This document shows, piece after piece, positions 7,022-64,000 of a stretch of 64,000 bases of DNA. The notes below the pieces were generated by a model, which worked only from the letters and a program-made list of their open reading frames with translations, was not told the DNA's origin and ran no database searches. The first letter of the stretch is position 1. Each line of letters begins with the position of its first letter. The DNA is taken from assembly GCA_034520505.1 (NCBI GenBank), contig JAXHNK010000003.1:22323-86322 (forward strand). Direction: 5' to 3'. The position numbers and the translations under genes were made by a program. The stretch is from Anaerolineales bacterium (GTDB lineage Bacteria; Chloroflexota; Anaerolineae; Anaerolineales; UBA11858).

Positions 7022-7022
7022 C

Positions 7023-7640: not shown

Positions 7641-7665
7641 GTTGGGATCGCAGAAGGATCCCAAC
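7641..7665 (-). terminator. perfect 9-bp hairpin downstream of the molybdoenzyme operon (possible terminator, no U-tract)
   Basis: GTTGGGATC-gcagaag-GATCCCAAC lies 175 nt past the stop of the 1071-aa gene. Neither strand has a T-run after it. Confidence 0.25.
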
Positions 7666-7838
7666 TCAAACGCGGGGCTGGATCGAGGAAAAGATTCGAC
7701 CAGACTGGAGCCCGGAATAAATCTCGATTGGGTTGAAGAAATCCATAAAAACCAATGGCCGAGAAAATGCTTGATTATCCTGGCACCTGAAATCGTGTTA
7801 TGCAAACTAAGTGATGGTACCCTTGAAACGAAGTTAGA

Positions 7839-12214: not shown

Positions 12215-12215
12215 C

Positions 12216-13124: not shown

Positions 13125-13278
13125 TTTCTTATCTCCGTTAATGATAGATGCAACTTATAAACAACTTTGAAAGGATTAGTTAAGCGGGAAAACATCTCCC
13201 TGGCATCAGATCAAGATCACAGCAATACCGCCAAATTCAGCATATCGATTTGAACACCGCCATAACCTGTTTATTTCC

Positions 13279-14175: not shown

Positions 14176-14223
14176 TCTCCTCCTCCATGGTTGGATATAC
14201 TCATTATATACTTATTTTGACCG

Positions 14224-14928
14224 TTAACCTGACAGCTGGAGGATCGTCTGGAGCACTTCAAGGAACAGCCTGCCGCTGTACAGGATCAAAAAGCCCCCGC
14301 TGAGGGCAAAAATCACCTTCTGGAATTTTCGCCCGAAAAATTGACCGCCCTGAAAGGACATCGTGGAAAGAAAAGTATCCCAGATCAGATCACACATCCA
14401 GTGTCCCACCGCGAAAGCCGCAAAAGCCCACCAGCCAAATTCGGACGAGCGCAGGATCAAAGCCGCGCCCACCGTCACCCACCAGATAAAGAAATAAGGA
14501 TTGCCCAGGCTGAGCACAGCCCCCGCTGCCACGGGTGAACGAGCGCTCCCCAGGGGATCTATCTTTTCCTGATTCAAACCCCGGAGCATGCCCACTCCCA
14601 TATACAGCAAAAAACATCCCCCTACCAGGCCGATTCCAACGGGGACCCAGGGCAGATCCATCAGTGCTCCAACCCCCAGATACACCCCGATCATCAGGGG
14701 GAATTCCACCAACCCGTGGCCGACCGCCACCCAGGCTCCAGCCCAGGGATCTTTGCTTCCATAGCCCACGGTCAGGGAAGTGATCGGGCCGGGGGCCATC
14801 ACCCCGGACAGAGAAACCAGCACCGCTTCTAAGAGAAATGTGATCAACCTGATGCAGCCTCCGGATGGGTCAGTGGACGTATTTAGAAATGATAGCACAT
14901 CCGGGAATTCCTTTTCCGCTAAAATCAC
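14224..14928 (-). CDS. LysE/RhtB-family amino-acid exporter-like membrane protein (start uncertain)
   Basis: Multi-pass membrane protein with the N-proximal APGPI motif typical of LysE translocators. The first ~30 aa of the listed ORF look like an over-extension. Confidence 0.6.
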   Translation of the reverse strand: MILAEKEFPDVLSFLNTSTDPSGGCIRLITFLLEAVLVSLSGVMAPGPITSLTVGYGSKDPWAGAWVAVGHGLVEFPLMIGVYLGVGALMDLPWVPVGIGLVGGCFLLYMGVGMLRGLNQEKIDPLGSARSPVAAGAVLSLGNPYFFIWWVTVGAALILRSSEFGWWAFAAFAVGHWMCDLIWDTFLSTMSFQGGQFFGRKFQKVIFALSGGFLILYSGRLFLEVLQTILQLSG

Positions 14929-14950
14929 CGGACAATCCGCAAGTTTACCC

Positions 14951-16141
14951 TCAGTCTTCTACCTTTACTAAAAGGACCAGCACAGCCAAAGCCAGCAGGT
15001 TTAAACCTACAGCCAGCGCGCTGTTCATGATCATCCCTCCCTGATAAAGCCGGGGGCCGAGGAACGAGCCCAGGGCATCGCCCGCCGAAACGGCGGCAGC
15101 GTGAAAAGCCATCAACGTCGCCCGGGCGCCGGGGCGCAGCTCGCTGACCAGGGAAAGGGCAGTCACCAGGGCAAATTCAAAGGCCAGGTAATAAACGAAC
15201 AGGCTGCTGACGGTTAACACCAATCTGCCCTCCAGTAAGGGAAAGGACAGGGCTGAGAGCAGATTGACGGTCAGCCCCAGTCCCAGGGCAAATTTTTTAC
15301 CCAGCCGATCTGTGAGCAAGCCCACCAGCACCAGTCCGGTAATGCCGGCAGCGCCAATTACCGAAGAAACATCCCCCAGCATCTGCTCGGTCATCTGGAA
15401 AACATGCTCAAACCAGGCGCCGTAAACGATCATGATCGCCCTGCTTCCGGTGATCATCAGGAAACTTACCCCGACAGCGGCCATGGAAGGACGGTGGCGG
15501 ATGGTTTTTTTCAACCCCGCCTTGAGATCCAGCTTTTGTCCAGTGGGGACGCTCGACGGCGGCAGGGCCCAATCGATCAAAATCAGGGAGAGCACCATCA
15601 CCCCTCCGACCCAGAGGAAAGGAGTCGACCAGCTGGACCGGGAAATCACCCGGCCGACCAGGGGTATACCAATTAGAAACGCGCCCGACCAGCCGAACTC
15701 GATCACGGCCATAGCCAGTGCCCGCCTCCGGTAGGGAACCCGGTCGCTGACATAGGCTTGAATGGAGGGGTCAAAAATCACAATCCCCATCCCGAAGAGC
15801 ATGCTGCCCACCAGAAAGGATAAAAAGGTGGGAAAAAACCCCACCAGCAGGGTCCCGGCCGCGATCAAGCCCAGCCCGGCCCGCAGGGCCCACTTCCGTC
15901 CCCGGGTGTCCCCCAGAGAGCCCAGCAGGGGGCTGAGCATACCCAGCGCGGAACGCACCGTGATGGCCAGGGCAGCGGTTTCCAGGGAGACATCCATGCC
16001 CCGGGCCAGGGCGGGAAGGAAGGGAAAAACCATCCGGTGGCCGGTGTAAATGACGGTGCGGGCAAAGCTAATCACCCCCAGCTGCAGCGGCATAGACCTC
16101 GTTTTTGGGGGCAGTGAGGGGTTTTGGGTAGATTCGGGCAT
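14951..16141 (-). CDS. MFS transporter
   Basis: About 12 TM helices with the loop motif GSLGDTRGRK between TM2 and TM3. Start chosen at the internal ATG (MPESTQ...); the listed ORF extends to 16201. Confidence 0.8.
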   Translation of the reverse strand: MPESTQNPSLPPKTRSMPLQLGVISFARTVIYTGHRMVFPFLPALARGMDVSLETAALAITVRSALGMLSPLLGSLGDTRGRKWALRAGLGLIAAGTLLVGFFPTFLSFLVGSMLFGMGIVIFDPSIQAYVSDRVPYRRRALAMAVIEFGWSGAFLIGIPLVGRVISRSSWSTPFLWVGGVMVLSLILIDWALPPSSVPTGQKLDLKAGLKKTIRHRPSMAAVGVSFLMITGSRAIMIVYGAWFEHVFQMTEQMLGDVSSVIGAAGITGLVLVGLLTDRLGKKFALGLGLTVNLLSALSFPLLEGRLVLTVSSLFVYYLAFEFALVTALSLVSELRPGARATLMAFHAAAVSAGDALGSFLGPRLYQGGMIMNSALAVGLNLLALAVLVLLVKVED

Positions 16142-16358
16142 GGACAGATTCCTGGATAAATATAGAAATAACAAGCATGTATTATAACGGAAAGAGGACA
16201 AAGGAACCGGTGGATCCTGCAGTCCGGGATCTGCCCCTGAACCTCCCCAACCGGCGGTAAAGACCAGGCCCTGACCCCATCAAAGAGCAGCGAATCCTGC
16301 CTGGAACTTGAAGCACCCCCCGGGAACCGATCGGGCCCGACACCGATCGGACCCGCAC

Positions 16359-16386
16359 TTGACAACCTCCCCCTTCCGGGTAAAAT
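16359..16386 (+). promoter_or_regulatory. sigma70-like promoter of the arsR-ATPase operon
   Basis: TTGACA (16359-16364), a 16-nt spacer, then TAAAAT (16381-16386). Confidence 0.45.
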
Positions 16387-16387
16387 A

Positions 16388-16409
16388 TGAACAATTGAAC
16401 ATATTTTCA
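16388..16409 (+). promoter_or_regulatory. candidate ArsR/SmtB operator
   Basis: TGAACAATTGAACATATTTTCA contains the imperfect palindrome TGAAC-ATAT-TTTCA. It resembles the TGAA-N6-TTCA cores of SmtB/CzrA-type operators (recalled) and lies immediately after the -10 element. Confidence 0.45.
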
Positions 16410-16425
16410 TCAATTGGAGGATAAG

Positions 16426-16725
16426 ATGAGCCGCTCCCCCCTTAAACCAGCTGTCGCCCACAGGATGGCCGATCTTTTCGCCGCGCTCAGCGACCCCAAC
16501 CGGGTGCGGATAATCGCCGCGCTGCTGGATAATGAGGTCAACGTGGGGGATTTGGCCCGGAAGGTAGAGATGAGCGAATCAGCGGTCTCCCATCAGCTGC
16601 GCACTTTGCGGCAAATGCACCTGGTCCGCCGGCGAAAAGTCGGCCGGGAAGCCTATTACACCCTGGATGACGATCATGTCGCCGACCTCTACCGCCGGAG
16701 CCTGGATCATATCCTTCATCATTAA
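16426..16725 (+). CDS. ArsR/SmtB-family metal-responsive transcriptional repressor
   Basis: HTH region LSDPNRVRIIAALLDNEVNVGDLARKVEMSESAVSHQLRTLRQ. Start set to the ATG 5 nt after GGAGG; the listed ORF starts at a TTG at 16414. Confidence 0.85.
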   Translation: MSRSPLKPAVAHRMADLFAALSDPNRVRIIAALLDNEVNVGDLARKVEMSESAVSHQLRTLRQMHLVRRRKVGREAYYTLDDDHVADLYRRSLDHILHH

Positions 16726-38225: not shown

Positions 38226-39611
38226 CTAGGATCCTACAACCGCTATTTCCAGGCGGTTTTTGCCTTTTTCCTTGGCCCTATATAAGGCCTGATCTGCGGT
38301 ATTGAGCAGGGCCTCAGGGCTGACAGCGGGATCCGGTTGGGCGGTCACCACCCCGACGCTGAGGGTTACCCCCATCTGGTGTTGATCCTTCCCGAAGGTA
38401 AACTCAAGTTCTTTGAGGATCAGCCGGCATTTTTCTGCGACCCGGATGGCGCCCTGTTGATCTGTTGCCGGTAAAACCGCCGCGAACTCATCACCCCCGA
38501 AACGGGCCAGCAGATCCCCCGGCCGCTGGAAGGCAGTGGATAGGGCCTGAGCCACGGTCTGCAGATACTGATCTCCCCTCAAATGCCCAAATTGATCATT
38601 AATCGCTTTGAAATTATCCACATCCATGATCAGCAAAGAAAGCGGTTCGTCGTTTCGCCGGGAACGCTTCCATTCGGTTTCCAGCATCTGATTGAAAAAC
38701 CGGCGGTTGGCGATCCCGGTGAGCTCATCGGTGATTGACACCTGATGAAGCCGCTCGCTCAATTCTTTATACTTTTTCCGGCTTTCTTTTAATTCCTTGA
38801 TAAGCTGATCGCGCTCCAGTTCGGTTTTTTTCCGCTTTTCAATTTCCCGCTGAGCCCTGGTGAGTTCTTCTTCCAGGGCAAAAAAATCACTGAGGATGGA
38901 CAGCACCGAGCGGTTGACAATCATGACATCCTCTTTCCTGCTCTGCCAGTGGAGATACCCGTAGAGGAAAGGCAGGGTAAAAAGGGAGAGGAGCAGGCGG
39001 CTGATCAGGGTCCCGCTCATGATGCTCAAATAATCCGGGGTGCCCGCAAAAGCGCCGGTCGCAAACAGCACCACATCCAGCAGCAGCACCCCCAGCAGGG
39101 TGAGATAGGTGCGCAGCCAGAGGTTGATCCTCAGGGCATATTTCCCCAAAAATTCCCAGGCGATGCCCAGGAAAATCAGGTCGATAAAAGTGGTGATCAC
39201 CGAAGCGGAATTGATCCGCAGGCTGGGCTCCGGGATCTGGATCAGGGAGGAATTAAACATGAGTTCTGTTTGTTGGTGCAGGACAGCCGCGATCAGGGGC
39301 ATCAGGATCGACACCCCCAGCACCGTAGAAATCGCCACCCGGGCATGATAGGGTCCATCAAAGACATAGACCACAAAAACGCTCAACAGCAGCGAGGTGT
39401 AAAAGACGGTGGAACCGACCACAAAAGTGATCCCGCCGACATCGACCGCCAGTCCGGCATCCGTGACCCAGGACATGATCGCCGTCACTCCCCCCAGTAA
39501 TGCATAAAAATGGGCGGGGCCAAACCGCTTGCGCAGGGAATGCGCCCCCAGCACCAGGAAATACATCCCCATGGCTTCTAAGATTAAAATCAAGGCAGCT
39601 TGGTTGATCAT
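38226..39611 (-). CDS. diguanylate cyclase (GGDEF) with N-terminal polytopic membrane sensor domain
   Basis: About 6-7 TM helices, a coiled coil, then the GGDEF domain (RFGGDEFA). Confidence 0.9.
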   Translation of the reverse strand: MINQAALILILEAMGMYFLVLGAHSLRKRFGPAHFYALLGGVTAIMSWVTDAGLAVDVGGITFVVGSTVFYTSLLLSVFVVYVFDGPYHARVAISTVLGVSILMPLIAAVLHQQTELMFNSSLIQIPEPSLRINSASVITTFIDLIFLGIAWEFLGKYALRINLWLRTYLTLLGVLLLDVVLFATGAFAGTPDYLSIMSGTLISRLLLSLFTLPFLYGYLHWQSRKEDVMIVNRSVLSILSDFFALEEELTRAQREIEKRKKTELERDQLIKELKESRKKYKELSERLHQVSITDELTGIANRRFFNQMLETEWKRSRRNDEPLSLLIMDVDNFKAINDQFGHLRGDQYLQTVAQALSTAFQRPGDLLARFGGDEFAAVLPATDQQGAIRVAEKCRLILKELEFTFGKDQHQMGVTLSVGVVTAQPDPAVSPEALLNTADQALYRAKEKGKNRLEIAVVGS

Positions 39612-55557: not shown

Positions 55558-57000
55558 ATGAACTCGTGTAGAGAACCCGTTCGCGTTAATCAAAATATCC
55601 TTGACATGGAATACGCAGTCAGGGGACCCATAGCCCGGCGAGCTGCAGAATTAGCGAAACAAGGTCATGAGATCATCCCCTGTCATATCGGGAACCCCCA
55701 GGCCCTGGGGCAAACGCCGATCACTTACCTGCGCCAGGTTTTGAGCCTGGTTGAGGATCCGTCAAAGATTGAACGAGAGCGGAAGATTAAGTCCTTGTTT
55801 GAAGAAACCCCCTTCAGCAATTTACGGGAGGATGATTTCATTGCAGAAGACATCCTCGATCTGAGCGAGGAAATTCTCGCCAAAAGTCAGCATGGGATGG
55901 GGGCATACACTGAAAGCAAAGGGTTTCAATTTATAAGAGAAGCTGTGGCAGAATTTATCAACCAGCGTGATGGCTTTGAGCCATCCAGCGGACTCGGCGC
56001 TGATCCCGAAAAGATATTTCTGACCAGCGGGGCCAGCCAAGGCGTTAAGTTCGTGGTCGACATCTTGATTGCGGATGAAAACGATGGAATCATGATCCCC
56101 GTTCCCCAGTACCCGCTCTATTCTGCATCGATCAAAAAAGTAGGTGGGGTGCAGGTAAATTATTATCCAGATGAAAAACAAGGGTGGACCTTTGATCGAT
56201 CCATTTTAGAGGATGCATTCATGAAAGCTCAAGCAGACGGGGTGAACGTGAAGGGGATCGTGGTCATCAATCCCGGAAATCCCACCGGCGCTGTTTTAGA
56301 CGAACACAGCATGAGAGATGTGATCCAATTCGCTTCAGAACATCACCTGATGATTATCGCTGACGAGGTCTACCAAGAAAATGTATATCAGGGCACTTTC
56401 CATTCCTTTGCTAAAGTATTGGGAACCGATCCAGTCCCCCTTGTCAGCCTGCACAGCGTATCCAAAGGTTTTTTGGGAGAATGCGGCCATCGAGGGGGAT
56501 ATCTAGAACTGCGGAATCCACCTGAGATTATTGGCTCCACGTTAGATTTTACGGAACTGCTCCACAAACAAGCTTCCGTCAGTTTATGTTCCAACACGCC
56601 CGGACAATTATTGACCTATCTGATGATAAGACCTCCCGCAGATAACAGTCAAACGCACCAAAAGTATATGGAGGAAAAGAAAAAGATATTAAACGACCTT
56701 CATGAGAAAGCGGTTATGATCAGGAAAGCGTTTCAGGAAATGGAAGGCGTGGAATGTTACGGGGAGACAGGAGCTTTGTATTTATTCCCGCGATTGAACG
56801 TTCTCCCTGAAGGGACGACGGATTACGATTATTGCCTGACCCTTCTCGAGGAAACTGGATTGTCCACGGTCAATGGTTCCGGTTTTGGGCAGAAAGAAGG
56901 TACAAACCATCTCAGGATCGCTTTTTTACCTCCCAAGGAATTATTAGAGCAGGTATTGCCCAAATGGATCAAGTTCCATAATCAATATGTAAGGAAATAA
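55558..57000 (+). CDS. PLP-dependent aminotransferase, alanine aminotransferase (ALT/GPT-type) subfamily
   Basis: 480 aa. The PLP-Lys block SLHSVSKGFLGECGHRGGY is characteristic of ALT-type class I aminotransferases. Confidence 0.8.
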   Translation: MNSCREPVRVNQNILDMEYAVRGPIARRAAELAKQGHEIIPCHIGNPQALGQTPITYLRQVLSLVEDPSKIERERKIKSLFEETPFSNLREDDFIAEDILDLSEEILAKSQHGMGAYTESKGFQFIREAVAEFINQRDGFEPSSGLGADPEKIFLTSGASQGVKFVVDILIADENDGIMIPVPQYPLYSASIKKVGGVQVNYYPDEKQGWTFDRSILEDAFMKAQADGVNVKGIVVINPGNPTGAVLDEHSMRDVIQFASEHHLMIIADEVYQENVYQGTFHSFAKVLGTDPVPLVSLHSVSKGFLGECGHRGGYLELRNPPEIIGSTLDFTELLHKQASVSLCSNTPGQLLTYLMIRPPADNSQTHQKYMEEKKKILNDLHEKAVMIRKAFQEMEGVECYGETGALYLFPRLNVLPEGTTDYDYCLTLLEETGLSTVNGSGFGQKEGTNHLRIAFLPPKELLEQVLPKWIKFHNQYVRK

Positions 57001-57275
57001 CTAAGAATAACGAAAAACCTATTAATGTGCTCCAGCCGGTCCTGACAGCCCTGCAGGGCATCCCTCAGCTTCTTGACAGCCAGAAACTGATCCCTGACCC
57101 GGATCAATTTCTGCGCAGTGATAGGGGGATAAAGAATCCCGCCCGAAAAGGTTTCTCCTTCTTTTACCCGGGTGACCGAGTGATCTGCCAATTCTGCTGC
57201 CTCCCTGACCAATCCGATTAATTCAGAATCTTCTGACGCGATCAGGGTCTTTAACGCTGGACCCATTTCATTCAC
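56982..57275 (-). CDS. hypothetical 97-aa protein (weak call)
   Basis: An SD-like GAGG lies 4 nt before the ATG. The ORF converges on and overlaps the aminotransferase 3' end by 19 nt. No family recognised. Confidence 0.3.
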   Translation of the reverse strand: MNEMGPALKTLIASEDSELIGLVREAAELADHSVTRVKEGETFSGGILYPPITAQKLIRVRDQFLAVKKLRDALQGCQDRLEHINRFFVILSYFLTY

Positions 57276-57454
57276 CTCGTAGACCTCCTATCTCCCGGAA
57301 AGGAATCTTTCCGGACGTAAATTTTGATTACAAATGAGGTGAAGGTCTTTTTTTCCGGGAAAACTAACAGGAAAGAAAACGCCGGGGGAAAAGAAATTTC
57401 TTTCCCTGGCGTAAAGATGAACACCAAAAAGAGCTCAGAATCTATTTCTGATTT

Positions 57455-58240
57455 TCAGGCCAAAATCCCTGACCGCTCCAAATAGATCAATCCTACCTGA
57501 AAAACGAGGAAGACAGCGACCAGCACCAAGCTCACCGGCCGGTACTTCACCGGCTTGATATACGTACGTTGCCGAGAAGCACCAAATCCGCGGCATTCCA
57601 GGGCTATTGCCGCCATTTCCGCTTTTCTCAAACCATTAACCAGGACCGTAAACATATACCTCTGCCAGAGTTTAAACCGATGAATCAATCCGGATTGAGC
57701 CGCCCGCCCGCGGATGGTGTGGGCTGATCTGACCGCCTCTACCTCCCGCTGGATCAGGGGGAGAAAACGAAGGGCCAAAAAAACAGCAAAAGCATACCGA
57801 TAGGGAACTCCGGCATTGGCCAGAGAAACCATTAAATCCCGGGTATCCGTGGTCCAGATCAGGACAAAACTGGCCAGGACCACTACAGAGAGGCGGAAAA
57901 AGAAAATGGGGCCTTCTTGAAGTCCACCGTCCGTGATGGTCAGGGGTCCAAGCCGGTAAACGGGTTGACCCGGATCAGCAAAGAAATGAAAAACCATCAG
58001 GATCAGTCCCAGGCCGAAGATCAACTTGGAGCTGCCCAGAAATGTAGCCAGCGGCACCCGCGAAACAACCAGGGCCATAAATAAGATCACCCCGAACATG
58101 ATGGCCCCTGTATAGGGCGTCCGGTAAAAAAACAAGCCTGCAGCGACCACAAAAACCCAGGCCAATTTCGTCAGCGGATAAATGCGGTGCATCAGGGAAT
58201 CTTTGGCTATGTAATTCAATCCATGTTCTTGTTCACTCAT
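57455..58240 (-). CDS. ECF transporter T component (EcfT/CbiQ family)
   Basis: 261 aa, 5-6 TM helices, Arg-rich coupling region (REVEAVRSAHTIRG). Last gene of the S-A-A'-T set. Confidence 0.8.
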   Translation of the reverse strand: MSEQEHGLNYIAKDSLMHRIYPLTKLAWVFVVAAGLFFYRTPYTGAIMFGVILFMALVVSRVPLATFLGSSKLIFGLGLILMVFHFFADPGQPVYRLGPLTITDGGLQEGPIFFFRLSVVVLASFVLIWTTDTRDLMVSLANAGVPYRYAFAVFLALRFLPLIQREVEAVRSAHTIRGRAAQSGLIHRFKLWQRYMFTVLVNGLRKAEMAAIALECRGFGASRQRTYIKPVKYRPVSLVLVAVFLVFQVGLIYLERSGILA

Positions 58241-58243
58241 AAT

Positions 58244-59275
58244 TTACTCACCTGATAATCGTAATTTCAGTAATCGTTCTAAATCCGCCGTTTTTCTGAC
58301 CCTGGTCTCCACCGGCGCCCCGTGGAATTCCATCTCCCGCAGCAGCTTGTGCAGGATCGTCCGGCGCAGATTTGCCTGGTGGAGAATCTTATCCCGGGTG
58401 AACAACCCTTCAGATAAGCCGTCAAAGAGCAGTTGTCCCCCACTCATCACCAGCACCCGCTCACCATATTCCTGAACCAACCGCATATCATGGGTGATCA
58501 TAACCACAGAAACTCCCTGATCCCGGATCTCTTCCATCAAGGACATCAGGGTAAACGTCATCTCCTTGTCCTGCCCGTAGGTAGGTTCATCAACCAGAAG
58601 AATCTGGGGATCACCAACCAGCATGGTAGCTACTCCCAACCTCCGTTTCAACCCCGCGCTGAGGGCGAACGGATGGGTATCTTTCTGTTCGAGCAGCCCC
58701 AGCTTGCCCAGCCATGTATCCGTTCTTCCCTCAATCTCCCGGGGATCAGACACACCCTGGGCCATCAAACTGTAACCTATCTCATCAGCGACACTGTCCG
58801 TCAAAAATTGGTGTTCCGGATTTTGAAACACTAGGGCGATTTGATTAGCCAGGGTCTGCACATCCCACCGGGAAGCCTCCTTCCCAAACAGGTTCAACCG
58901 GCCTCCAGTAGGCTTTTTCAGGCCGACGAGCAAATTAGCCAGGGTGCTCTTCCCGGCTCCGTTCCGCCCCAGGATCATCAACCATTCTCCCTGGTGGATA
59001 TCGAACGTGATCCCCCGCAAAGCTTCTACCCCGCCGGGATATTCAAACCTGAGGTTTTTTCCGGAAATAAGCACCTGTGGTGAACGATCTCCTCGGGGCT
59101 CTGCTTCTTTTTCGCTCACAGAATAACCCTTCTGGAGCAAGCCCTTCTCCTGGAAAAGATCGATCGTTTCTGACACCGTGATGGGAATTGGGTGTTTCTC
59201 TATTCCAGCTGCCTGCTGCAAACCCACACCGATCTCACTGGTTTCCGGCAGCCAGACACCCAGGGTGTCAATCAT
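58244..59275 (-). CDS. ECF transporter ATPase (EcfA') with ~70-aa N-terminal extension
   Basis: GRNGAGKST, LSAGLKRRL and LLVDEPT. Confidence 0.85.
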   Translation of the reverse strand: MIDTLGVWLPETSEIGVGLQQAAGIEKHPIPITVSETIDLFQEKGLLQKGYSVSEKEAEPRGDRSPQVLISGKNLRFEYPGGVEALRGITFDIHQGEWLMILGRNGAGKSTLANLLVGLKKPTGGRLNLFGKEASRWDVQTLANQIALVFQNPEHQFLTDSVADEIGYSLMAQGVSDPREIEGRTDTWLGKLGLLEQKDTHPFALSAGLKRRLGVATMLVGDPQILLVDEPTYGQDKEMTFTLMSLMEEIRDQGVSVVMITHDMRLVQEYGERVLVMSGGQLLFDGLSEGLFTRDKILHQANLRRTILHKLLREMEFHGAPVETRVRKTADLERLLKLRLSGE

Positions 59276-60009
59276 ATACCTGCCATCTCGGCGTAAAACT
59301 TCCCGGGGGAATCCGCTCCGTGAATGCTCCCTTGCTCCAGGACAATCAATTGATCAGCCTCAGCCAGAAATTCATCCAGCTCTCTGGTAACCAGCAAAAC
59401 AGTGATCCCCTCTTTGCGCAGGGTGAGCAGCAAATCGTGTACGTTTTCCGTCGCTCCCGGGTCCAGGTTGGATGTAGGTTCATCAAGGACAATCATCTCC
59501 GGCCTCATTGCCAGGACGGAAGCCAGCCCTAATTTCTGGACCTGTCCTCCGGAAAGGTTCCAGACCAGGTTGTTTCTGCGGTCCACCAGATCGGTCATTT
59601 CCAATAACTCTTCCACGGTGGATTTAATGCTTTCCACCTCCAGACACAGATTCTCCGGGCCAAAGGCGATCTCATCATCCACATAAAGCATGGCAAACAT
59701 GGTTTCAGGATCTTGAAACACCCTGCCCACCTGTTGGGAAAGGTTTTTGACCTCTAATTCCCGGGTATTCTTCCCCTGAACAAAGACATCCCCGTGCAGT
59801 TCGCCACCGAGCAGGTGGGGGATAACTCCGTTTAATAAACCACACAGAGTGGACTTTCCCGAACCGCTGGGCCCTACCAGCACATTAAGGGTTCCGGGTT
59901 GAATCTTCAAAGATACATCATGCAAGGTAGGCTGATCTTGATTCCAATGCGTATACGTGACGTTTTTTATTTCTGCGATGGGTTCGTTTGCTGCGTTGAT
60001 TTGATTCAT
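59272..60009 (-). CDS. ECF transporter ATPase (EcfA)
   Basis: GPSGSGKST, LSGGQVQKL and IVLDEPTS. Overlaps the next gene by 4 nt. Confidence 0.9.
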   Translation of the reverse strand: MNQINAANEPIAEIKNVTYTHWNQDQPTLHDVSLKIQPGTLNVLVGPSGSGKSTLCGLLNGVIPHLLGGELHGDVFVQGKNTRELEVKNLSQQVGRVFQDPETMFAMLYVDDEIAFGPENLCLEVESIKSTVEELLEMTDLVDRRNNLVWNLSGGQVQKLGLASVLAMRPEMIVLDEPTSNLDPGATENVHDLLLTLRKEGITVLLVTRELDEFLAEADQLIVLEQGSIHGADSPGKFYAEMAGI

Positions 60010-60077
60010 AAATTTATGAGCGTGGGATACAGAAACTGTACCCCACGCGTTTAATCCTTAGATTTTCGATCGTCAGG

Positions 60078-60719
60078 CTAAGCTGCTGACCGGACCAAGC
60101 CCGTACGGGCAATCGCCTGGGCCAAAAGATAACCTACCAATCCGCTGAGAATGATCCCGGAAAGCAAATTTATGGGAACGGCCATCCAGACATCGCTGGC
60201 ATAAGCAGGATCCCAGCCGAAGAAAATGGCTGTCCACACCGTGCCGAACTGAGAGGATGCAGCTCCAGCACAGAGCGCTGCCACCAGATCAAACTTGGCA
60301 TACATGGCGATCGCCATCACAACTTCGATGGCCAACCCCTGGCTGATTCCCCAGCCCAGGGTACCTACGCCGGAAGCATTGCCCAGCAGGATTTCCACCG
60401 CTGCTTCAATAATTCCTAGGGCCAGGGCCGCACCGGGTTTCCGGATCAGCCAAACAACCAGGACATAAGCCCACATGAAAGCACCCTGCAGAAGAGCCCC
60501 ACCCAGGGGTCCCAGGGAAGAGTTCGCCAGGTACCACAAGTTACCCACACCGGTATTAACCACGCCGGCTATAGCAGCTACGACGGCCAGGATGACTATA
60601 TCACGCGTGGAATAATCAAAATCGAACCGGCTACCCTCAAAAGTCTTCTTTCCTACGGTGCGGGCGATCAGTCCCGCGACAATCACGATCACGATATTCA
60701 CGATGAAATAGAAAGACAT
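60078..60719 (-). CDS. ECF transporter S component, YkoE-like (by recollection)
   Basis: Start set to the ATG 5 nt after GGAGG. About 6 TM helices. The block IRKPGAALALGIIEAAVEILLGNASG closely resembles the B. subtilis YkoE block as I remember it (IRKPGAALVSEIIAALVECLLGNPSG). Confidence 0.7.
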   Translation of the reverse strand: MSFYFIVNIVIVIVAGLIARTVGKKTFEGSRFDFDYSTRDIVILAVVAAIAGVVNTGVGNLWYLANSSLGPLGGALLQGAFMWAYVLVVWLIRKPGAALALGIIEAAVEILLGNASGVGTLGWGISQGLAIEVVMAIAMYAKFDLVAALCAGAASSQFGTVWTAIFFGWDPAYASDVWMAVPINLLSGIILSGLVGYLLAQAIARTGLVRSAA

Positions 60720-60761
60720 ACTTACCTCCATATAAATCTAGAAGAACACAGTATTCTCCCC

Positions 60762-62141
60762 TTACTTCAAACGGGTCAAGCCCATCTCTATCAGTTCCTT
60801 TTTCACCTCCTTATATAACCTGAACCACTCTTTACGGGGTTTCAGGGTTTCGAGATCATACGCCTGATCAAATCTGACCCCGGGATTGCCCGCGGGGTCC
60901 TCAAAAACGTGCTCATACCGTTCCACAAGTTTGACCGTGATTTCATTGGCTTCTTCCAGGGATAAACCCTGCCTGGCCACTGCTCGCCCCACCTCTCCCA
61001 TCAAACGGCATTCCAGTCCGGTAGCATTGGGTTTCAGGCCATCCGCAGACCCTACACCCTCCAAATGGCCTCCGCTGGCCGTGATCACAATGGCATTGGC
61101 CGCTGTTTCATAAAGGAGTTCCCGGGTCATGGCGCCGCTCTTGGGGTAAATATCCGAGACAATGATACAGGGCGCGTTGCGGGCGAACGCCTGCTGGACG
61201 ATGCTCTCCACCCACATCACGCTCCGGGTTGAAGTCGCTACATGCCGCATATGAATTGGATGAAGCAGTTGATAATCGCTGTGATTGGTTAAGTTCCCGA
61301 TGATGAAAGAGGCGACATTAACCACGGCAGATCCGGGAGCATCCCCACCCAACCCACCCACCAGGACACAGTACAGCGCCGCGTTGTGCATACCGTATTC
61401 CAGCGAATTCACCGCCCGGGCGATGTTCCGGTTATCAATTTTCAACTCATTCAGCATGGGAACCAGATGGGCGTCCGAGGGCCGCAAATAATCAGGATGG
61501 GCTACGGCCAGATCGCCCAACTCAGACACACTGCTCTGGGCCGCCAGCATGCCCATCCCCGGACGGCCGACCCTCTTCAAGATCTGCCGCAGGTAAAGGA
61601 GCTCCCTCCTGGTAGCTACAATTTCTATGGGGGACCCCGTCCGCACCTCGCGCCCATCCACCTCAGCCAGGCTGCCGCAGGTGATCAAATCTACGATCGG
61701 CTCCTGGGCCCAGCTCATCACACTCGGCAAAAAAAGGTGTTCCGGATGGGGTGCGCCGGGATTTCCAGCCCAGATGAGGGGCGGCCGCTCATCGCCAATT
61801 TCCCGGGCGAAAAGCGTCCGGGCATCCTTCCCGGTTCCCAGGACCAATTCCCGGGGCATAAGCTCCATACCCGCTTCCAATTCCTGCCGGTCAAACTCCA
61901 GGATGCGCTCCGTCGAACGAGAATAGCCCCCAATCTCAACCGCCAACTCCAGACCGGCTTCAAAAATCACATCAGCCAGTCCGGGATCTGCAGTTACGAT
62001 CTGATCGGGATCCCACTCCAATTTATATTTCTCGACCAATTTCTGGGTGGTCATGGCCACTTTTTCCAGATCCCAATCATCCTCAGCGATATAGGGACCT
62101 TGGTTAGCACGATCCAAAACATCAAAATAATCAATAATCAC
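60762..62141 (-). CDS. MtmB-family (monomethylamine methyltransferase-like) protein lacking pyrrolysine
   Basis: 459 aa. Blocks DDWDL, LGTGKDA, GRPGMGM, LNELKID and RLMGEVGR are colinear with methanogen MtmB (recalled). A Leu codon sits where MtmB has UAG/Pyl. No in-frame TAG. Confidence 0.75.
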   Translation of the reverse strand: MIIDYFDVLDRANQGPYIAEDDWDLEKVAMTTQKLVEKYKLEWDPDQIVTADPGLADVIFEAGLELAVEIGGYSRSTERILEFDRQELEAGMELMPRELVLGTGKDARTLFAREIGDERPPLIWAGNPGAPHPEHLFLPSVMSWAQEPIVDLITCGSLAEVDGREVRTGSPIEIVATRRELLYLRQILKRVGRPGMGMLAAQSSVSELGDLAVAHPDYLRPSDAHLVPMLNELKIDNRNIARAVNSLEYGMHNAALYCVLVGGLGGDAPGSAVVNVASFIIGNLTNHSDYQLLHPIHMRHVATSTRSVMWVESIVQQAFARNAPCIIVSDIYPKSGAMTRELLYETAANAIVITASGGHLEGVGSADGLKPNATGLECRLMGEVGRAVARQGLSLEEANEITVKLVERYEHVFEDPAGNPGVRFDQAYDLETLKPRKEWFRLYKEVKKELIEMGLTRLK

Positions 62142-62824
62142 TGGGCAGCTCCTTGATTACTCCGCAGATCCCGAATAAAACTTCTGGCCAGCTTAACAGC
62201 TCCCAGGGCATGATCCGCAGTTCCATCCGCACCGATATCCCGGGCAAAATCCTCGGATACAGAAGCACCGCCTACCATCACCCGGAAGCGGTCCCTTTCT
62301 CCCATGACCTCTAACAAATTCATCAGATCACGCATAAAAGGCATAGAGGTGGTCAAGAGAGCAGAGCAGGCAATGATCTCAGCATCCACCTCCTGGGCTT
62401 TTTTGACGATTTCTTTGATAGGGACATCTACGCCCAGATCATGGACCTCAAAACCCGAGGCGGACAGCATGGAAGAGACGATGTTTTTCCCTATATCATG
62501 GATATCTGATTTCACCGTAGCCAAAACCACAACCCCGGTATCATCCTGCTGAGCTTCACCGCTGGCATATTCTTCCTTTAATTGAGGCTCAATGACCTCC
62601 ATGGCCGCTTTCAAAGCCCGACCCGTCATCATCAACCGGGGTAAGAAATATTCTCCGGTCTCGAACTTGTCTCCCACAATCTCTGCGCCTTTCATCAATC
62701 CCCCTTGCAGGATGGAAAAAGCGCTGAGATCAGCTTTCAGGGCCCGGCGTGTGAACTCCACAGCCTGTTCTTCATCTCCGGCAACAATGGCTTTTTGCGT
62801 TTGCTGAATCAATTCTTCACTCAT
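62138..62824 (-). CDS. cobalamin-binding corrinoid protein (MtmC/MttC-like)
   Basis: 228 aa. N-terminal helical cap, then a B12-binding Rossmann domain with SDIHDIGKN (DxHxxG), SALLTT (SxL) and MVGGA (GG). Confidence 0.9.
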   Translation of the reverse strand: MSEELIQQTQKAIVAGDEEQAVEFTRRALKADLSAFSILQGGLMKGAEIVGDKFETGEYFLPRLMMTGRALKAAMEVIEPQLKEEYASGEAQQDDTGVVVLATVKSDIHDIGKNIVSSMLSASGFEVHDLGVDVPIKEIVKKAQEVDAEIIACSALLTTSMPFMRDLMNLLEVMGERDRFRVMVGGASVSEDFARDIGADGTADHALGAVKLARSFIRDLRSNQGAAQ

Positions 62825-63009
62825 AAATCGTCCTTTATAATGATTAATTTTTTCCCGGCTGTTTTGGCTAATTTAACCCGGCGCCGGTCCCGGGGATGAC
62901 ATCCGATTTCCCAGAGCGCTCCACCAACATGAAAACGCTAGCTGCACCACTAAACGTAAGCAGTGGAGAGAACATCCGTTTTAGTTTCTACCAATAAAAG
63001 AAAATGGGC

Positions 63010-63726
63010 TTAACGACCCGTCATCTTACGAAGGACATTAAAAGAAAAGTATTCAGGACGATAATATTCATCAGAATACATCAAGGGTTGTTCATCAGCA
63101 TTGAAGGCTGTTTCTTTAAAATAATGGACCGGGATGCCCTGCTCGCACTGCAAATAACGACTGAGTGCTGAGTCCACGACCACGGGCATGATTTCGGTCA
63201 GGTTATGATTCACCTTCTGATGACACCTTTTTTCCAGAAACGTATAAACCGGCCCATAGAGTTCTTCCTCATCGTAGGCGCTGCGGACAAGTTTCGCCGG
63301 AATGTAATCAACGCAGTAAATCACCGGCACATTATCAGCCAAAAAAACATTGGCCGTGCGCAGAACTTCCTCATCACCCAGGTTCAAGGCTGAACCGATG
63401 GCTTCTCCGGGAACGATTAACGATAGTTCTACATGGCGGACATCAGCTGAAAAACCCGAAGTCTCAATCATTTCTACAAAATCCCAAACTTCTTCCAACC
63501 GGGTCCCGATATTGAGGACGCGTTGATTGATAAAGGTTCCCGATCCGTGCTTCCGGAACAAAATCCCCTCCAATTCCAATTCGGCTAATGCCTGTCGGAT
63601 CGTGTTCCTGCTCACCCCCATCTGGCGGGCAAGGGCAGGCTCGGAGGGCAAGCGCCCTTCCGCAAAATCGCCTCCCTCTATCTGGTGTCTCAACTCAGAG
63701 ACAATCTTTTCTACCCTGGACATCAT
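63010..63726 (-). CDS. GntR-family transcriptional regulator, HutC/UTRA subfamily
   Basis: wHTH LPSEPALARQMGVSRNTIRQALAELELEGILFRKHGSGTFI followed by a UTRA-like effector domain. Confidence 0.9.
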   Translation of the reverse strand: MMSRVEKIVSELRHQIEGGDFAEGRLPSEPALARQMGVSRNTIRQALAELELEGILFRKHGSGTFINQRVLNIGTRLEEVWDFVEMIETSGFSADVRHVELSLIVPGEAIGSALNLGDEEVLRTANVFLADNVPVIYCVDYIPAKLVRSAYDEEELYGPVYTFLEKRCHQKVNHNLTEIMPVVVDSALSRYLQCEQGIPVHYFKETAFNADEQPLMYSDEYYRPEYFSFNVLRKMTGR

Positions 63727-64000
63727 TCCCCGCCTAGTTGTCTAACATCTTATAAAGTTGTCTTTCATCTTCTCTTTTTATATCAAAACCTGGGAATTTT
63801 TCAACAACGAAGGCCGAAAACAAGCCCAAATCCACCCTTTTAAGAAGAAAATCACCCCCGGGACATACGCCCTGTCGCCAGCGCTCCTTACCTCTTAAAC
63901 CGATGCTTGAATCTTAGATCGCTCACCAAGATCCAAACTTTATGATCCGGTTTAAGTGTCAAAATCAAACCAGGAATAAGCTCCTGGTCACAAAAGGGAA

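What the first reader, a model, noticed from the sequence alone, without database searches (positions are those of the whole stretch)
60762..62824. Pyrrolysine-free MtmB-type methyltransferase paired with a corrinoid protein in a non-methanogen context
**Colinearity with MtmB.**
- The 459-aa ORF appears near-colinear with methanogen monomethylamine methyltransferase MtmB, which is 458 aa as I recall.
- Shared blocks are DDWDL (aa 21-25), LGTGKDA, GRPGMG, LNELKID and RLMGEVGR.

**The pyrrolysine position.**
- In MtmB the active-site block reads GRPGMGV-[Pyl]-GPE, with the UAG-encoded pyrrolysine at about residue 202.
- Here the same block reads GRPGMGM-L-AAQ, with a sense Leu codon at aa 199.
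- There is no in-frame TAG anywhere in the gene.

**Partner protein.** The gene overlaps by 4 nt a 228-aa B12-binding protein with an intact DxHxxG/SxL/GG signature. This is the standard MT1 + corrinoid pairing.

**Why it is open.**
- Non-Pyl relatives of the trimethylamine enzyme MttB are established quaternary-amine demethylases.
- To my knowledge, no equivalent substrate has been assigned to non-Pyl MtmB relatives.
- No MT2 (corrinoid:THF/CoM methyltransferase) or RamA-type activase is visible. The window ends about 270 bp beyond the regulator gene.
Basis: partly seen in the sequence, partly recalled or inferred. Interest (0 to 1): 0.85.

Follow-up and report, generated by a model that had tools for sequence, protein, structure and literature searches.

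The report
Pyrrolysine-free MtmB methyltransferase with dedicated importer
An Anaerolineae bacterium carries a vitamin-B12-dependent methyl-removing enzyme related to the methanogens' methylamine enzyme but without its special amino acid pyrrolysine, in one operon with its B12 carrier protein and its own importer; gene neighbours in relatives suggest, without proving it, that it takes methyl groups from methylated adenine-like bases.

Summary
The 459-aa ORF (60762-62141, minus strand) is a full-length MtmB-family protein: Pfam E=1e-100, and the predicted fold matches M. barkeri MtmB at TM 0.95. A sense Leu199 sits exactly where MtmB has Pyl202, and there is no in-frame TAG. The gene overlaps by 4 nt an intact corrinoid protein.

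Together with the upstream GntR/UTRA regulator this makes one module.

The protein belongs to a tight clade, mostly Anaerolineae, found in 78 species genomes at 58-89% identity. Leu occupies the Pyl position in 62 of 65 members.

The claim that no non-Pyl MtmB has a substrate is out of date. MtqB (tetramethylammonium/choline) was reported in 2026. The window protein is only 28-30% identical to the Methanococcoides clade I take to be MtqB and has a different pocket, so this clade remains unassigned.

No MT2 or activase lies in the 64 kb. Relatives carry RACo, a homocysteine S-methyltransferase and an MtaA-like gene downstream.

Context gives a new, testable lead that the substrate is a methylated adenine-like base. 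Supporting features in this clade and sister clades are adenine and 5'-deoxyadenosine deaminases, xanthine dehydrogenase, Bmp and NCS1 transporters, and retained pyrimidine-contact residues in the S component.

The parts
63010..63726 (-). GntR-family regulator with UTRA effector domain (HutC subfamily type), 238 aa, directly upstream on the same strand
   Evidence: PF00392 E=1.3e-17 and PF07702 E=9e-23. A GntR homologue lies within 8 kb in 7 of 43 related loci, mainly the closest relatives L004-L006, L008, L009, L011.
62825..63009 (-). 185-nt intergenic region upstream of the corrinoid gene; presumed promoter/operator, no riboswitch
   Evidence: No Rfam match at E<=1 other than one chance snoRNA hit elsewhere. 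No inverted repeat of 10 nt or more. Promoter-like sites are no more frequent than in shuffles.
62138..62824 (-). Corrinoid (B12-binding) protein, 228 aa; methyl carrier between MT1 and MT2
   Evidence: PF02607 plus PF02310. DxHxxG-x41-SxL-x28-GG intact. Closest NCBIfam models are MtgC, the Pyl-system corrinoid family and MtbC, all below their cut-offs. A homologue lies within 200 nt upstream of the MtmB-like gene in 55 of 73 related loci.
60762..62141 (-). Non-pyrrolysine MtmB-family methyltransferase (MT1), 459 aa; Leu199 at the Pyl202 position
60078..60731 (-). ECF transporter S (substrate-capture) component of the YkoE family, 217 aa (213 aa as called on the sibling contig)
   Evidence: PF09819 E=1.6e-25. 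Its only PDB relative is thiamine-bound B. subtilis YkoE (5EDL), E=9.6e-16. YkoE's pyrimidine contacts W49/E77/Q95 correspond to F85/E113/Q131. The thiazole contacts Y46/D131 correspond to Q82/T167. All are conserved in 46 orthologues, position 167 as T or S (residue roles from PMC5037267).
58244..60009 (-). ECF ATPase pair (YkoD-like double ATPase), read here as two ORFs: 59272-60009 (245 aa) and 58244-59275 (343 aa)
   Evidence: Two ABC_tran domains, with best NCBIfam matches to ECF ATPases. A 99.84%-identical sibling contig (L001) has one extra A near window 59308 and encodes a single 588-aa fused protein.
57455..58240 (-). ECF T (transmembrane coupling) component, CbiQ family, 261 aa; last gene of the string
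   Evidence: PF02361 E=3.7e-36. Present within 4 kb downstream in 45 of 58 related loci. The next gene, an aminotransferase at 55558-57000, is on the opposite strand and convergent.

Best explanation
**Proposed function.** The seven ORFs at 57455-63726 (minus strand) form one import-and-demethylate module.
1. A dedicated group I ECF transporter (YkoE-like S component, double ATPase, T component) imports a methylated small molecule.
2. The MtmB-family enzyme binds that molecule in the TIM-barrel pocket that pyrrolysine fills in methanogens, and presents its methyl group to Co(I) of the corrinoid protein encoded just upstream.
3. The resulting methyl-Co(III) protein is unloaded by a second methyltransferase encoded elsewhere in this genome. 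In relatives the candidates are a stand-alone homocysteine S-methyltransferase domain protein, an MtaA-like protein or a methyl-THF:corrinoid-type enzyme.
4. A RACo-type ATP-dependent activase rescues oxidised Co(II).
5. The GntR/UTRA protein probably senses the substrate or the product.

**Proposed substrate.** I think the most likely substrate class is an N-methylated aminopurine or aminopyrimidine. A methyladenine is the leading candidate (N6-, 1-, 3- or 7-methyl; position unresolved). In that case the substrate's own protonated heterocycle would do the activating job that the pyrrolysine-methylamine adduct does in MtmB.

**Shown versus inferred.**
- Shown: family, fold, Leu at the Pyl site, intact corrinoid motif, operon layout, conservation, and gene neighbourhoods in relatives.
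- Inferred: that the ECF system carries the substrate, the identity of MT2, and the substrate itself.

**Confidence by tier.**
- Corrinoid MT1 + carrier module: about 0.9.
- ECF transporter is the substrate importer: about 0.6.
- Methylated adenine-like base as substrate: about 0.35.
For: **Family, fold and Pyl-to-Leu.**

**One conserved clade.**
- It is found in 78 species genomes, nearly all Anaerolineae, with a few Desulfobacterales and one Syntrophothermus.
- The whole clade collapses into one 50%-identity cluster. The nearest other full-length clusters are at 44% and 41%.
- The Pyl position is Leu in 62 of 65 members.
- The positions aligned to MtmB E205/E229/E259/Q333/Y335 read Q/L/L/D/Y in 61-63 of 65 members.

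**Operon partners in relatives.**
- Corrinoid protein: 55 of 73 loci.
- S component: 48 of 66 loci.
- T component: 45 of 58 loci.
- RACo: 17 of 43 loci.
- PF13769 protein: 17 of 43 loci.
- Homocysteine S-methyltransferase: 15 of 43 loci.
- MtaA-like protein: 12 of 43 loci.

**The transporter is swapped, not added.** Among 46 loci with enough flank, 34 have the ECF system and 4 have a Bmp/PnrA-type ABC system. None has both.

**Adenine link.**
- In-clade locus L082 reads GntR-corrinoid-MtmB-like-adenine deaminase (TIGR01178, 614 bits, cut-off 472)-two xanthine-dehydrogenase sets.
- L084 holds a Bmp ABC system, a 5'-deoxyadenosine-deaminase-type amidohydrolase (538 bits, cut-off 522), a second amidohydrolase, a GcvT-like protein, a corrinoid protein, three MtmB paralogues and xanthine dehydrogenase.
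- L065 has an adenine-deaminase homologue directly upstream of its MtmB-like gene.
- The sister clade at 44% identity has adenine deaminase (657 bits) in the same string.
- The sister clade at 38% has an overlapping 5'-deoxyadenosine-deaminase-type gene (535 bits).
- The sister clade at 41% has an NCS1 permease, whose best model is the hydroxymethylpyrimidine transporter CytX, directly upstream of its corrinoid gene. Its B12 importer is a separate Btu-like operon behind a cobalamin riboswitch.

**S component.** It keeps YkoE's pyrimidine-ring contacts but not its thiazole contacts.

**No thiamine regulation.** No TPP, purine or cobalamin riboswitch precedes any of the 27 MtmB-like loci scanned or the window operon.
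Against: - The window itself has no deaminase, xanthine dehydrogenase, MT2 or activase, so the substrate inference rests wholly on relatives.
- Purine-type neighbours occur in only about 8 of 78 in-clade loci. In Pelolinea submarina the pair sits among sugar genes.
- One sister clade lies next to CODH/ACS genes with no nucleobase gene.
- YkoE's pyrimidine contacts are the most conserved residues of the whole YkoE family (PMC5037267), so keeping them may be a family trait rather than a ligand signal.
- Bmp-family binding proteins are not restricted to nucleosides. The one tested only weakly matched a putative B6-binding model.
- No corrinoid-dependent demethylation of a nucleobase turned up in the papers I searched.
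- The roles I assign to MtmB E205/E229/E259/Q333 come from my memory of Hao et al. 2002. I could not verify them.
- I had no access to model coordinates, so I did no docking or pocket geometry.
Confidence: 0.4

Rival explanations
1. It is a quaternary-amine methyltransferase like MtqB. The imported substrate would be choline, tetramethylammonium or another small quaternary ammonium compound, demethylated without pyrrolysine because the leaving group is already a neutral amine.
For: - The only characterised non-Pyl MtmB homologue, MtqB, uses tetramethylammonium and choline (PMC13044021).
- All characterised non-Pyl MttB relatives use quaternary amines, as reviewed in PMC9768040.
- The corrinoid protein's best NCBIfam model is the glycine-betaine-specific MtgC, although below its cut-off.
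- The conserved Asp330 and aromatic Tyr332 could hold a cation.
Against: - Identity to the Methanococcoides/Methanohalobium clade, which I take to be MtqB, is only 28-30%. That is no closer than to Pyl-MtmB at 33%.
- The pocket signature differs at every compared position: LMGPG/E/G/Y/W against MLAAQ/L/L/D/Y.
- Betaine and choline importers are normally BCCT or OpuA-type. Here the partners are YkoE-type ECF, Bmp-type ABC or NCS1 transporters.
- Adenine-type deaminases and xanthine dehydrogenase have no role in quaternary-amine use.
Confidence: 0.2
2. It is a pyrrolysine-independent monomethylamine methyltransferase. A neighbouring or distant deaminase would hydrolyse N6-methyladenine or N6-methyladenosine to hypoxanthine or inosine plus methylamine, and the MtmB-like enzyme would then harvest the methyl group of that methylamine.
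For: - Members of the binuclear adenine-deaminase family (Bh0637, Bsu06560) release methylamine from N6-methyladenine or N6-methyladenosine (PMC8643624).
- E. coli Add deaminates N6-methyladenosine (PMC13296781).
- Such deaminase families sit next to MtmB-like genes in five independent contexts.
- MtqB shows a small methylamine activity without Pyl.
Against: - Most loci, including the window, have no deaminase next to the pair.
- The acidic positions of the MtmB site (E205/E229/E259) are replaced by Q/L/L, a poor fit for a small cation.
- Replacing the long Pyl side chain with Leu should enlarge the pocket. This is inference.
- Methylamine needs no ECF importer.
- Neutral or protonated methylamine is a poor methyl donor without the Pyl adduct. 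This rests on established knowledge of the Pyl mechanism, summarised in PMC9842639.
Confidence: 0.1
3. The ECF transporter is an ordinary thiamine/HMP importer that only happens to be co-transcribed. The MtmB-like enzyme would act on some unrelated methylated compound, and the neighbourhood says nothing about its substrate.
For: - The S component's only solved relative is the thiamine-binding YkoE, and it keeps the pyrimidine contacts.
- Eighteen of 73 loci lack an adjacent corrinoid gene, yet several of these keep the ECF genes.
Against: - The adjacency holds in about three quarters of loci across 78 species, with only a 30-nt gap in the window.
- No TPP riboswitch precedes the genes in the window or in 14 ECF-type loci.
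- The thiazole contacts Y46 and D131 are replaced in all 46 orthologues.
- Where the ECF genes are absent, another importer type takes the same place.
Confidence: 0.15

Closest known systems
MtmB, monomethylamine:corrinoid methyltransferase of Methanosarcina barkeri (PDB 1L2Q/1NTH; Pfam PF05369)
   Same: - Same length (459 against 458 aa).
- Colinear alignment at 33% identity.
- Same TIM-barrel fold (TM 0.95, rmsd 1.4 A).
- Same GRPGMG strand carrying the key position.
- Same pairing with a DxHxxG corrinoid protein.
   Different: - Leu199 (CTG) replaces the UAG-encoded Pyl202.
- The residues aligned to E205/E229/E259/Q333 are Q/L/L/D.
- The host is a bacterium with ordinary TAG stops.
- There is no MtbA/CoM pathway context.
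- It is coupled to an ECF importer.
MtqB, the tetramethylammonium/choline methyltransferase of Methanococcoides methylutens Q3c (PMC13044021): the only non-Pyl MtmB homologue with a demonstrated activity
   Same: - Non-Pyl member of the MtmB family.
- Adjacent cognate corrinoid protein.
- Same three-component logic.
- Its authors propose that the substrate occupies the place of the Pyl adduct.
   Different: - Only 28-30% identity to the M. methylutens/Methanohalobium/Methanolobus clade (P0443, P0351 and others) that I take to be MtqB. I could not match the paper's locus tag to a sequence.
- Met rather than Leu at the Pyl position, followed by GP.
- E229 is kept, and G/Y/W replace L/D/Y.
- Archaeal CoM pathway, with no ECF transporter reported.
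Non-Pyl MttB-superfamily quaternary-amine methyltransferases (MtgB, MtpB, MtcB, MtyB)
   Same: Precedent that a Pyl enzyme family has many Pyl-free members. These act on other methylated amines through a cognate corrinoid protein, an MT2 and an activase.
   Different: A different family. Structure search gives MttB/MtgB TM about 0.5 and 10-12% identity.
YkoEDC, the group I ECF thiamine transporter of Bacillus subtilis (YkoE, PDB 5EDL; PMC5037267)
   Same: - S component of the same Pfam family (PF09819), E=1e-15.
- Dedicated double ATPase and T component in the same operon.
- Pyrimidine-contact residues kept as aromatic/Glu/Gln.
   Different: - Thiazole-contact residues are replaced (Y46 to Q, D131 to T/S).
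- No TPP riboswitch.
- Co-transcribed with a corrinoid methyltransferase pair under a GntR regulator.
N6-methyladenine / N6-methyladenosine deaminases (Bh0637, Bsu06560; E. coli Add)
   Same: These are the known bacterial routes for returning N6-methylated adenines to metabolism. The same enzyme families occur next to MtmB-like genes in relatives.
   Different: They are hydrolytic and discard the methyl group as methylamine. The system proposed here would capture the methyl group on a corrinoid. Not encoded in the window.

Membership tests
MtmB family (Pfam PF05369) | Full-length match to the family HMM above the curated cut-off | tested here: met
   337.7 bits against a cut-off of 25; residues 3-455 on profile 1-450/450.
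MtmB family (Pfam PF05369) | MtmB TIM-barrel fold | tested here: met
   AF2 model with pLDDT 95.9. Match to 1L2Q: TM 0.95, rmsd 1.4 A, 456 columns.
Pyl-dependent monomethylamine methyltransferase (MtmB proper) | In-frame UAG decoded as pyrrolysine at the position of Pyl202 | tested here: not met
   CTG (Leu199) at that position and no in-frame TAG. TAG is used as a stop in 10 of 52 ORFs, and there is no tRNA-CUA in the window.
Pyl-dependent monomethylamine methyltransferase (MtmB proper) | Monomethylamine:corrinoid methyl transfer activity | not testable with these tools
   Needs an enzyme assay.
MtqB (tetramethylammonium/choline methyltransferase) | Orthology with the Methanococcoides methylutens enzyme. 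Members of the archaeal clade share 55-90% identity with each other. | tested here: not met
   28-30% identity to P0443, P0440, P0351, P0455 and P0475, and 25% to the other Methanococcoides paralogue P0480. Caveat: P0443 is assigned as MtqB from organism name and clade make-up, not from an accession match.
MtqB (tetramethylammonium/choline methyltransferase) | Shared residues at the positions around the Pyl site | tested here: not met
   LMGPG/E/G/Y/W in the archaeal clade against MLAAQ/L/L/D/Y here.
Methyltransferase-cognate corrinoid protein (MtxC type) | B12-binding_2 cap plus Rossmann B12-binding domain with DxHxxG-x41-SxL-x26-28-GG | tested here: met
   PF02607 and PF02310. D107/H109/G112, S154/L156 and G185-G186 with spacings of 41 and 28.
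Complete three-component corrinoid methyltransferase system (MT1, corrinoid protein, MT2, activase) | MT2 (methylcorrinoid:acceptor methyltransferase) encoded with the pair | tested here: not met
   No homologue of the homocysteine S-methyltransferase, MtaA-like or methyl-THF:corrinoid genes of relatives anywhere in the 64 kb (tblastn). In relatives: 15 of 43, 12 of 43, and two loci respectively.
Complete three-component corrinoid methyltransferase system (MT1, corrinoid protein, MT2, activase) | Reductive activase (RamA or RACo type) | tested here: not met
   None in the window. RACo/AcsV-like genes lie next to the pair in 17 of 43 related loci. The rest of this genome could not be read.
Group I ECF transporter of YkoEDC type | YkoE-family S component with its own ATPases and T component in one operon | tested here: met
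   PF09819, 5EDL E=9.6e-16, two ABC_tran domains (fused in sibling contig L001) and a CbiQ T component.
Group I ECF transporter of YkoEDC type | Thiamine specificity: thiazole contacts Y46/D131 and TPP-riboswitch control | tested here: not met
   Q82 and T167 stand in their place in all 46 orthologues (T or S at 167). No TPP riboswitch in the window or in 14 related ECF-type loci.

The most novel reading that the evidence does not exclude
This clade is the first oxygen-independent, corrinoid-dependent demethylase for methylated nucleobases. The leading candidates are methyladenines released from DNA and RNA turnover.

In this reading the base's own protonated ring replaces pyrrolysine as the activating group. 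A vitamin-type ECF importer scavenges the base. The methyl group is passed to homocysteine or folate rather than being lost as methylamine or formaldehyde.

This would give abundant anaerobic Chloroflexota a previously unrecognised route that salvages both the purine and the methyl group.
Probability: 0.3. Interest if true: 0.85.

Novelty: new variant of a known kind. Interest (0 to 1): 0.66.

Why it matters
- **An unassigned family.** Non-Pyl MtmB homologues form a very large family: 929 clusters at 50% identity match this protein at E<=1e-3. Only one member has a demonstrated substrate.
- **An abundant host group.** This clade is found in 78 species genomes, nearly all of them Anaerolineae. 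From general knowledge, these are among the most abundant bacteria of anoxic sediments and digesters. Annotation pipelines label the protein 'monomethylamine:corrinoid methyltransferase', a function the missing pyrrolysine and remodelled pocket make unlikely. Metagenomic surveys that count 'mtmB' may therefore over-call methylamine use.
- **A concrete experiment.** The comparative context turns an open question into a short substrate panel centred on methylated adenines, with a cultured carrier available (Pelolinea submarina).
- **If the nucleobase lead holds.** It would add a new substrate class to corrinoid methyltransferases. It would also explain how pyrrolysine-type chemistry can be done with a substrate-borne heterocycle, and it would reveal an anaerobic fate for epigenetic and RNA-modification bases.

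Tried and rejected
**Searches within the window.**
- tblastn for MT2, RACo and PF13769 homologues of relatives found nothing.
- tblastn for adenine or adenosine deaminases, Bmp, NCS1, GcvT-like and xanthine dehydrogenase found nothing.
- Pfam scans of 30 further window ORFs between 8 and 51447 showed no methyl-transfer or purine genes.

**Regulatory signals.**
- No riboswitch in 57000-64000 at E<=1.
- No riboswitch upstream of MtmB-like operons in 27 related or sister loci.
- The sigma-70 promoter and terminator scan gave no more sites than shuffles.
- No inverted repeats in the two intergenic regions.

**Reading beyond the window.** The database records a 91-kb contig for this protein, but only 6.6-kb and 2.1-kb sibling contigs could be fetched.

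**Finding the MtqB sequence.**
- The paper and its supplement give no sequence.
- Two cluster look-ups by name failed.
- A search seeded with the non-Pyl cluster nearest to Pyl-MtmB led to Methanomassiliicoccales instead.
- A second search seeded with the Methanohalobium homologue found the Methanococcoides methylutens clade. The link to the paper's locus tag remains unverified.

**Verifying the MtmB Pyl-site residues from the literature.** Not found.

**Ideas considered and rejected.**
- The ECF transporter imports B12 or cobalt. It is of YkoE type, not CbrT or CbiMN type. In a sister clade B12 import is a separate Btu-like operon behind a cobalamin riboswitch.
- The gene is a decaying relic. 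Full-length conservation across more than 120 clusters and a near-invariant pocket argue against this.
- The papers on arsenic demethylation, chloromethane (Cdm) and mlp clusters describe this family. They do not.

**Weak hint only.** An anoxic caffeine-amended sediment enriched an Anaerolineae population 8.7-fold, but its authors attribute demethylation to Methanosarcina.


Full report
**1. The observation**

The ORF at 60762-62141 (minus strand) is exactly as described.
- It encodes 459 aa from a GTG start 7 nt after an AAGGAG site, and ends at TAA with no internal stop of any kind.
- The five quoted blocks are at residues 21, 101, 192, 230 and 379.
- The residue after GRPGMGM is Leu199, codon CTG.

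The family and fold assignments are secure.
- Pfam's MtmB model matches from end to end (E=1.4e-100).
- The only solved relatives are the M. barkeri MtmB structures (E=1.6e-70). The alignment has no gap for 150 residues around the site and puts Leu199 on the 'X' that stands for Pyl202.
- An AlphaFold2 model built on 60 homologues (pLDDT 95.9) has Leu199 in a barrel strand. It superposes on 1L2Q with TM 0.95 and rmsd 1.4 A. This matches the published description of Pyl202 as anchored on a strand inside the barrel (PMC9842639).

The upstream 228-aa protein is a canonical corrinoid protein with DxHxxG-x41-SxL-x28-GG. It overlaps the MT1 gene by 4 nt.

Nothing suggests UAG read-through in this organism. 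TAG ends 10 of 52 long ORFs, and the window has only tRNA-Met and tRNA-Gly.

**2.

The same strand continues, 30 nt after the MT1 stop, with a complete dedicated ECF transporter.
- The S component is of the YkoE family (60078-60731).
- Two ATPase ORFs follow (59272-60009 and 58244-59275).
- A CbiQ-type T component closes the string (57455-58240).

A sibling contig 99.84% identical to the window has one more A near 59308 and encodes the ATPases as one 588-aa fusion. The split in the window is therefore a one-base deletion or an assembly error.

With the GntR/UTRA gene upstream (63010-63726), the unit is regulator, corrinoid protein, MT1, S, A-A, T. The next gene is convergent.

**3. Who has it**

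- More than 120 database clusters share 70-89% identity. Where named, they come from Anaerolineae/Chloroflexota metagenome genomes and from the cultured Pelolinea submarina.
- A scan of one genome per species found 78 loci at 58-86% identity. Nearly all are Anaerolineae, with a few Desulfobacterales and one Syntrophothermus bin.
- In a library clustered at 50% identity the whole clade is one cluster. The next full-length clusters are at 44%, 41% and 39% or less.
- 929 clusters match at E<=1e-3, so the MtmB superfamily is very diverse.
- Across its representatives the GRPG strand is kept, while the Pyl position holds almost any residue.
- Within this clade the position is Leu in 62 of 65 sequences.
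- The positions aligned to MtmB E205, E229, E259, Q333 and Y335 are Q, L, L, D and Y in 61-63 of 65 sequences. I recall those MtmB residues as lining the Pyl site (Hao et al. 2002) but could not confirm this from the papers available.

The pattern is a conserved, more hydrophobic pocket with one new acidic residue.

**4. Is the function already known?**

Partly, for the family.
- A 2026 paper shows that MtqB of Methanococcoides methylutens Q3c is a non-Pyl MtmB homologue that methylates cob(I)alamin with choline and tetramethylammonium. It calls this the first function for any non-Pyl MtmB.
- Its tree leaves the remaining non-Pyl clades as 'unknown function', and it does not mention Chloroflexota (PMC13044021).
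- The paper gives no sequence. Through two searches I found the non-Pyl MtmB clade of M. methylutens, Methanococcoides sp., Methanohalobium, Methanohalophilus and Methanolobus, plus one Firmicutes bin.
- The window protein is 27-30% identical to these, against 33% to Pyl-MtmB. It differs at every pocket position compared: Met-Gly-Pro against Leu-Ala-Ala at and after the Pyl position, E229 kept there and Leu here, and G/Y/W against L/D/Y. A second Methanococcoides paralogue is at 25%.

Whichever of these is MtqB, the window protein is not its orthologue.

**5. Gene neighbourhoods**

Counts come from tblastn on the 78 loci, using only loci with enough flanking DNA.

| Neighbour | Position relative to the MtmB-like gene | Loci |
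|---|---|---|
| Corrinoid protein | within 200 nt upstream | 55 of 73 |
| S component | within 300 nt downstream | 48 of 66 |
| T component | within 4 kb downstream | 45 of 58 |
| RACo-type activase | within 8 kb, same strand | 17 of 43 |
| Small PF13769 protein | within 8 kb, same strand | 17 of 43 |
| Stand-alone homocysteine S-methyltransferase domain protein | within 8 kb, same strand | 15 of 43 |
| MtaA/CmuA-like protein | within 8 kb, same strand | 12 of 43 |
| GntR | within 8 kb | 7 of 43 |

- Two loci carry a methyl-THF:corrinoid methyltransferase instead.
- The commonest long form is: corrinoid protein, MT1, S, AA, T, PF13769, RACo, homocysteine methyltransferase, MtaA-like, all on one strand.

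Relatives thus show the full set of parts of a working corrinoid methyl-transfer system. They also show that the methyl acceptor may be homocysteine (giving methionine), another thiol or folate. The window has none of these extra genes in 64 kb. They must lie elsewhere in the genome, which I could not read.

**6. A lead on the substrate**

Among 46 loci with long flanks, 34 have the ECF system, 4 have a Bmp/PnrA-type ABC transporter, and none has both. This swapping is what one expects if either transporter brings in the substrate.

The loci without ECF genes are rich in purine genes.
- L082 (77% identity to the window protein) reads GntR, corrinoid protein, MT1, adenine deaminase (TIGR01178, 614 bits, cut-off 472), then two sets of xanthine-dehydrogenase subunits.
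- L084 reads:
  - an MtmB paralogue, a Bmp ABC transporter and two amidohydrolases, one of which passes the 5'-deoxyadenosine deaminase model (538 bits, cut-off 522);
  - then a GcvT-like folate enzyme, a corrinoid protein, MT1, another paralogue and xanthine dehydrogenase.
- L065 has an adenine-deaminase homologue directly upstream.

Three of the four sister clades I could inspect point the same way.
- The 44% clade has adenine deaminase (657 bits), corrinoid protein, MtaA-like protein and MT1 in one string.
- The 38% clade P0131/P0297 has GntR/UTRA, MT1 and an overlapping 5'-deoxyadenosine-deaminase-type gene (535 bits). That gene is 73% identical to the one in L084.
- The 41% clade is from gut Clostridia and occurs on over a thousand contig blocks. 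It has an NCS1 nucleobase-type permease directly before the corrinoid gene, and the permease's best model is the hydroxymethylpyrimidine transporter CytX.
  - RACo and URO-D genes lie nearby.
  - Its B12 importer is a separate Btu-like operon behind a cobalamin riboswitch.
- The fourth sister clade lies next to CODH/ACS genes and shows no nucleobase gene.

The S component gives a further clue.
- Its only solved relative is thiamine-bound YkoE.
- In that structure W49, E77 and Q95 hold the aminopyrimidine ring, and Y46 and D131 hold the thiazole (PMC5037267).
- All 46 S-component orthologues here have F, E and Q at the first three positions, but Q and T/S at the last two.
- No TPP riboswitch precedes any of these operons.

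Taken together, five independent deaminase adjacencies, two nucleobase-type transporter families, xanthine dehydrogenase and the retained aminopyrimidine contacts point to an adenine-like ring as the body of the substrate.

**7. Mechanism proposed**

The ECF system imports a methylated aminopurine or aminopyrimidine. MT1 binds it where the Pyl side chain would lie. Asp330 and Gln202 hold or protonate the ring so that the N-methyl group becomes a good electrophile for Co(I). The demethylated base is released to salvage or, where the genes are present, to deamination and oxidation. The methyl-corrinoid protein is then unloaded by an MT2.

The chemistry is plausible by analogy. In MtmB the methyl donor is a methylammonium group attached to a ring carbon of pyrrolysine. 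In N6-methyladenine a methylamino group sits on a ring carbon of an amidine. In 1-, 3- or 7-methyladenine the methyl sits on a ring nitrogen that is cationic, like the quaternary amines used by all characterised Pyl-free relatives.

This step is inference; nothing here tests it. The known bacterial routes for N6-methylated adenines are hydrolytic deaminases that release methylamine (PMC8643624 and PMC13296781). That also raises the rival reading that the MtmB-like enzyme works on that methylamine. I rate the rival lower for three reasons:
- most loci, including this one, lack a deaminase;
- the pocket has lost the acidic positions;
- methylamine needs no ECF importer.

**8. Weak points**

- Purine-type neighbours are a minority, about 8 of 78 in-clade loci.
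- Pelolinea has the pair among sugar genes.
- YkoE's pyrimidine contacts are conserved across its whole family, so they may be a family trait.
- Bmp proteins are not strictly nucleoside-specific.
- I had no coordinates for pocket geometry.
- The assignment of P0443 as MtqB is by organism and clade, not by accession.

**9. Verdict**

Its claim of complete novelty is weakened by MtqB. However, this clade is distinct, widespread, mis-annotated as a methylamine enzyme, tied to an unusual importer, and now has a specific substrate hypothesis. I file it as a new variant of a known kind of system.

Noticed in passing
window 59300-59315 (near 59308): A one-base deletion relative to a 99.84%-identical sibling contig (L001) splits a 588-aa fused double ECF ATPase into two ORFs of 245 and 343 aa with an ATGA stop/start overlap. 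This may be a strain difference or an assembly error.
   Followed up: yes
window 7839-13124 (minus strand): A low-GC island (about 41% against about 55% around it) encodes a molybdopterin oxidoreductase (1071 aa), an NrfD-type membrane subunit and a 4Fe-4S subunit. This is a Psr/Nrf-like complex that looks horizontally acquired. A MoeA gene lies at 1540-2745.
   Followed up: partly
window 38226-39611 (minus strand): A diguanylate cyclase (GGDEF) with an N-terminal 'vitamin uptake-like sensor' (VUPS) membrane domain, which resembles ECF S components.
   Followed up: no
L084 (=L019) 1-16455: One Chloroflexota cluster holds three MtmB-like paralogues that are only 30-40% identical to each other. 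With them are a Bmp ABC transporter, two amidohydrolases, a GcvT-like protein, a corrinoid protein and xanthine dehydrogenase. It may be a multi-step demethylation pathway.
   Followed up: partly
L013, L026, L046 (gene next to the MtmB-like gene): A Rieske/VanA_C-type oxygenase, the family of aerobic O- and N-demethylases, lies beside the MtmB-like gene. In L026 and L046 it sits where the corrinoid gene usually is.
   Followed up: no
L085 3011-3210 (minus strand): A cobalamin riboswitch (80.7 bits) lies upstream of a BtuF/FecCD-type ABC importer, a few genes from the sister-clade MtmB-like operon.
   Followed up: partly
related loci, gene after the ECF T component (e.g. L074 13478-13780): A roughly 95-aa PF13769 ('Virulence_fact') protein always precedes the RACo activase and the homocysteine S-methyltransferase gene (17 of 43 loci). 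Its role in corrinoid systems is unknown.
   Followed up: no
L043 12979-13085 (minus strand): A DUF3800-III RNA motif (95 bits) a few kb from the MtmB-like operon of a Chloroflexota genome.
   Followed up: no
P0480 (Methanococcoides sp. LMO-2) and P0251/P0333 clade (Methanomassiliicoccales): Methanogens carry at least two further Pyl-free MtmB-like lineages besides the presumed MtqB clade. One has Lys or Ile at the Pyl position followed by GP.
   Followed up: no
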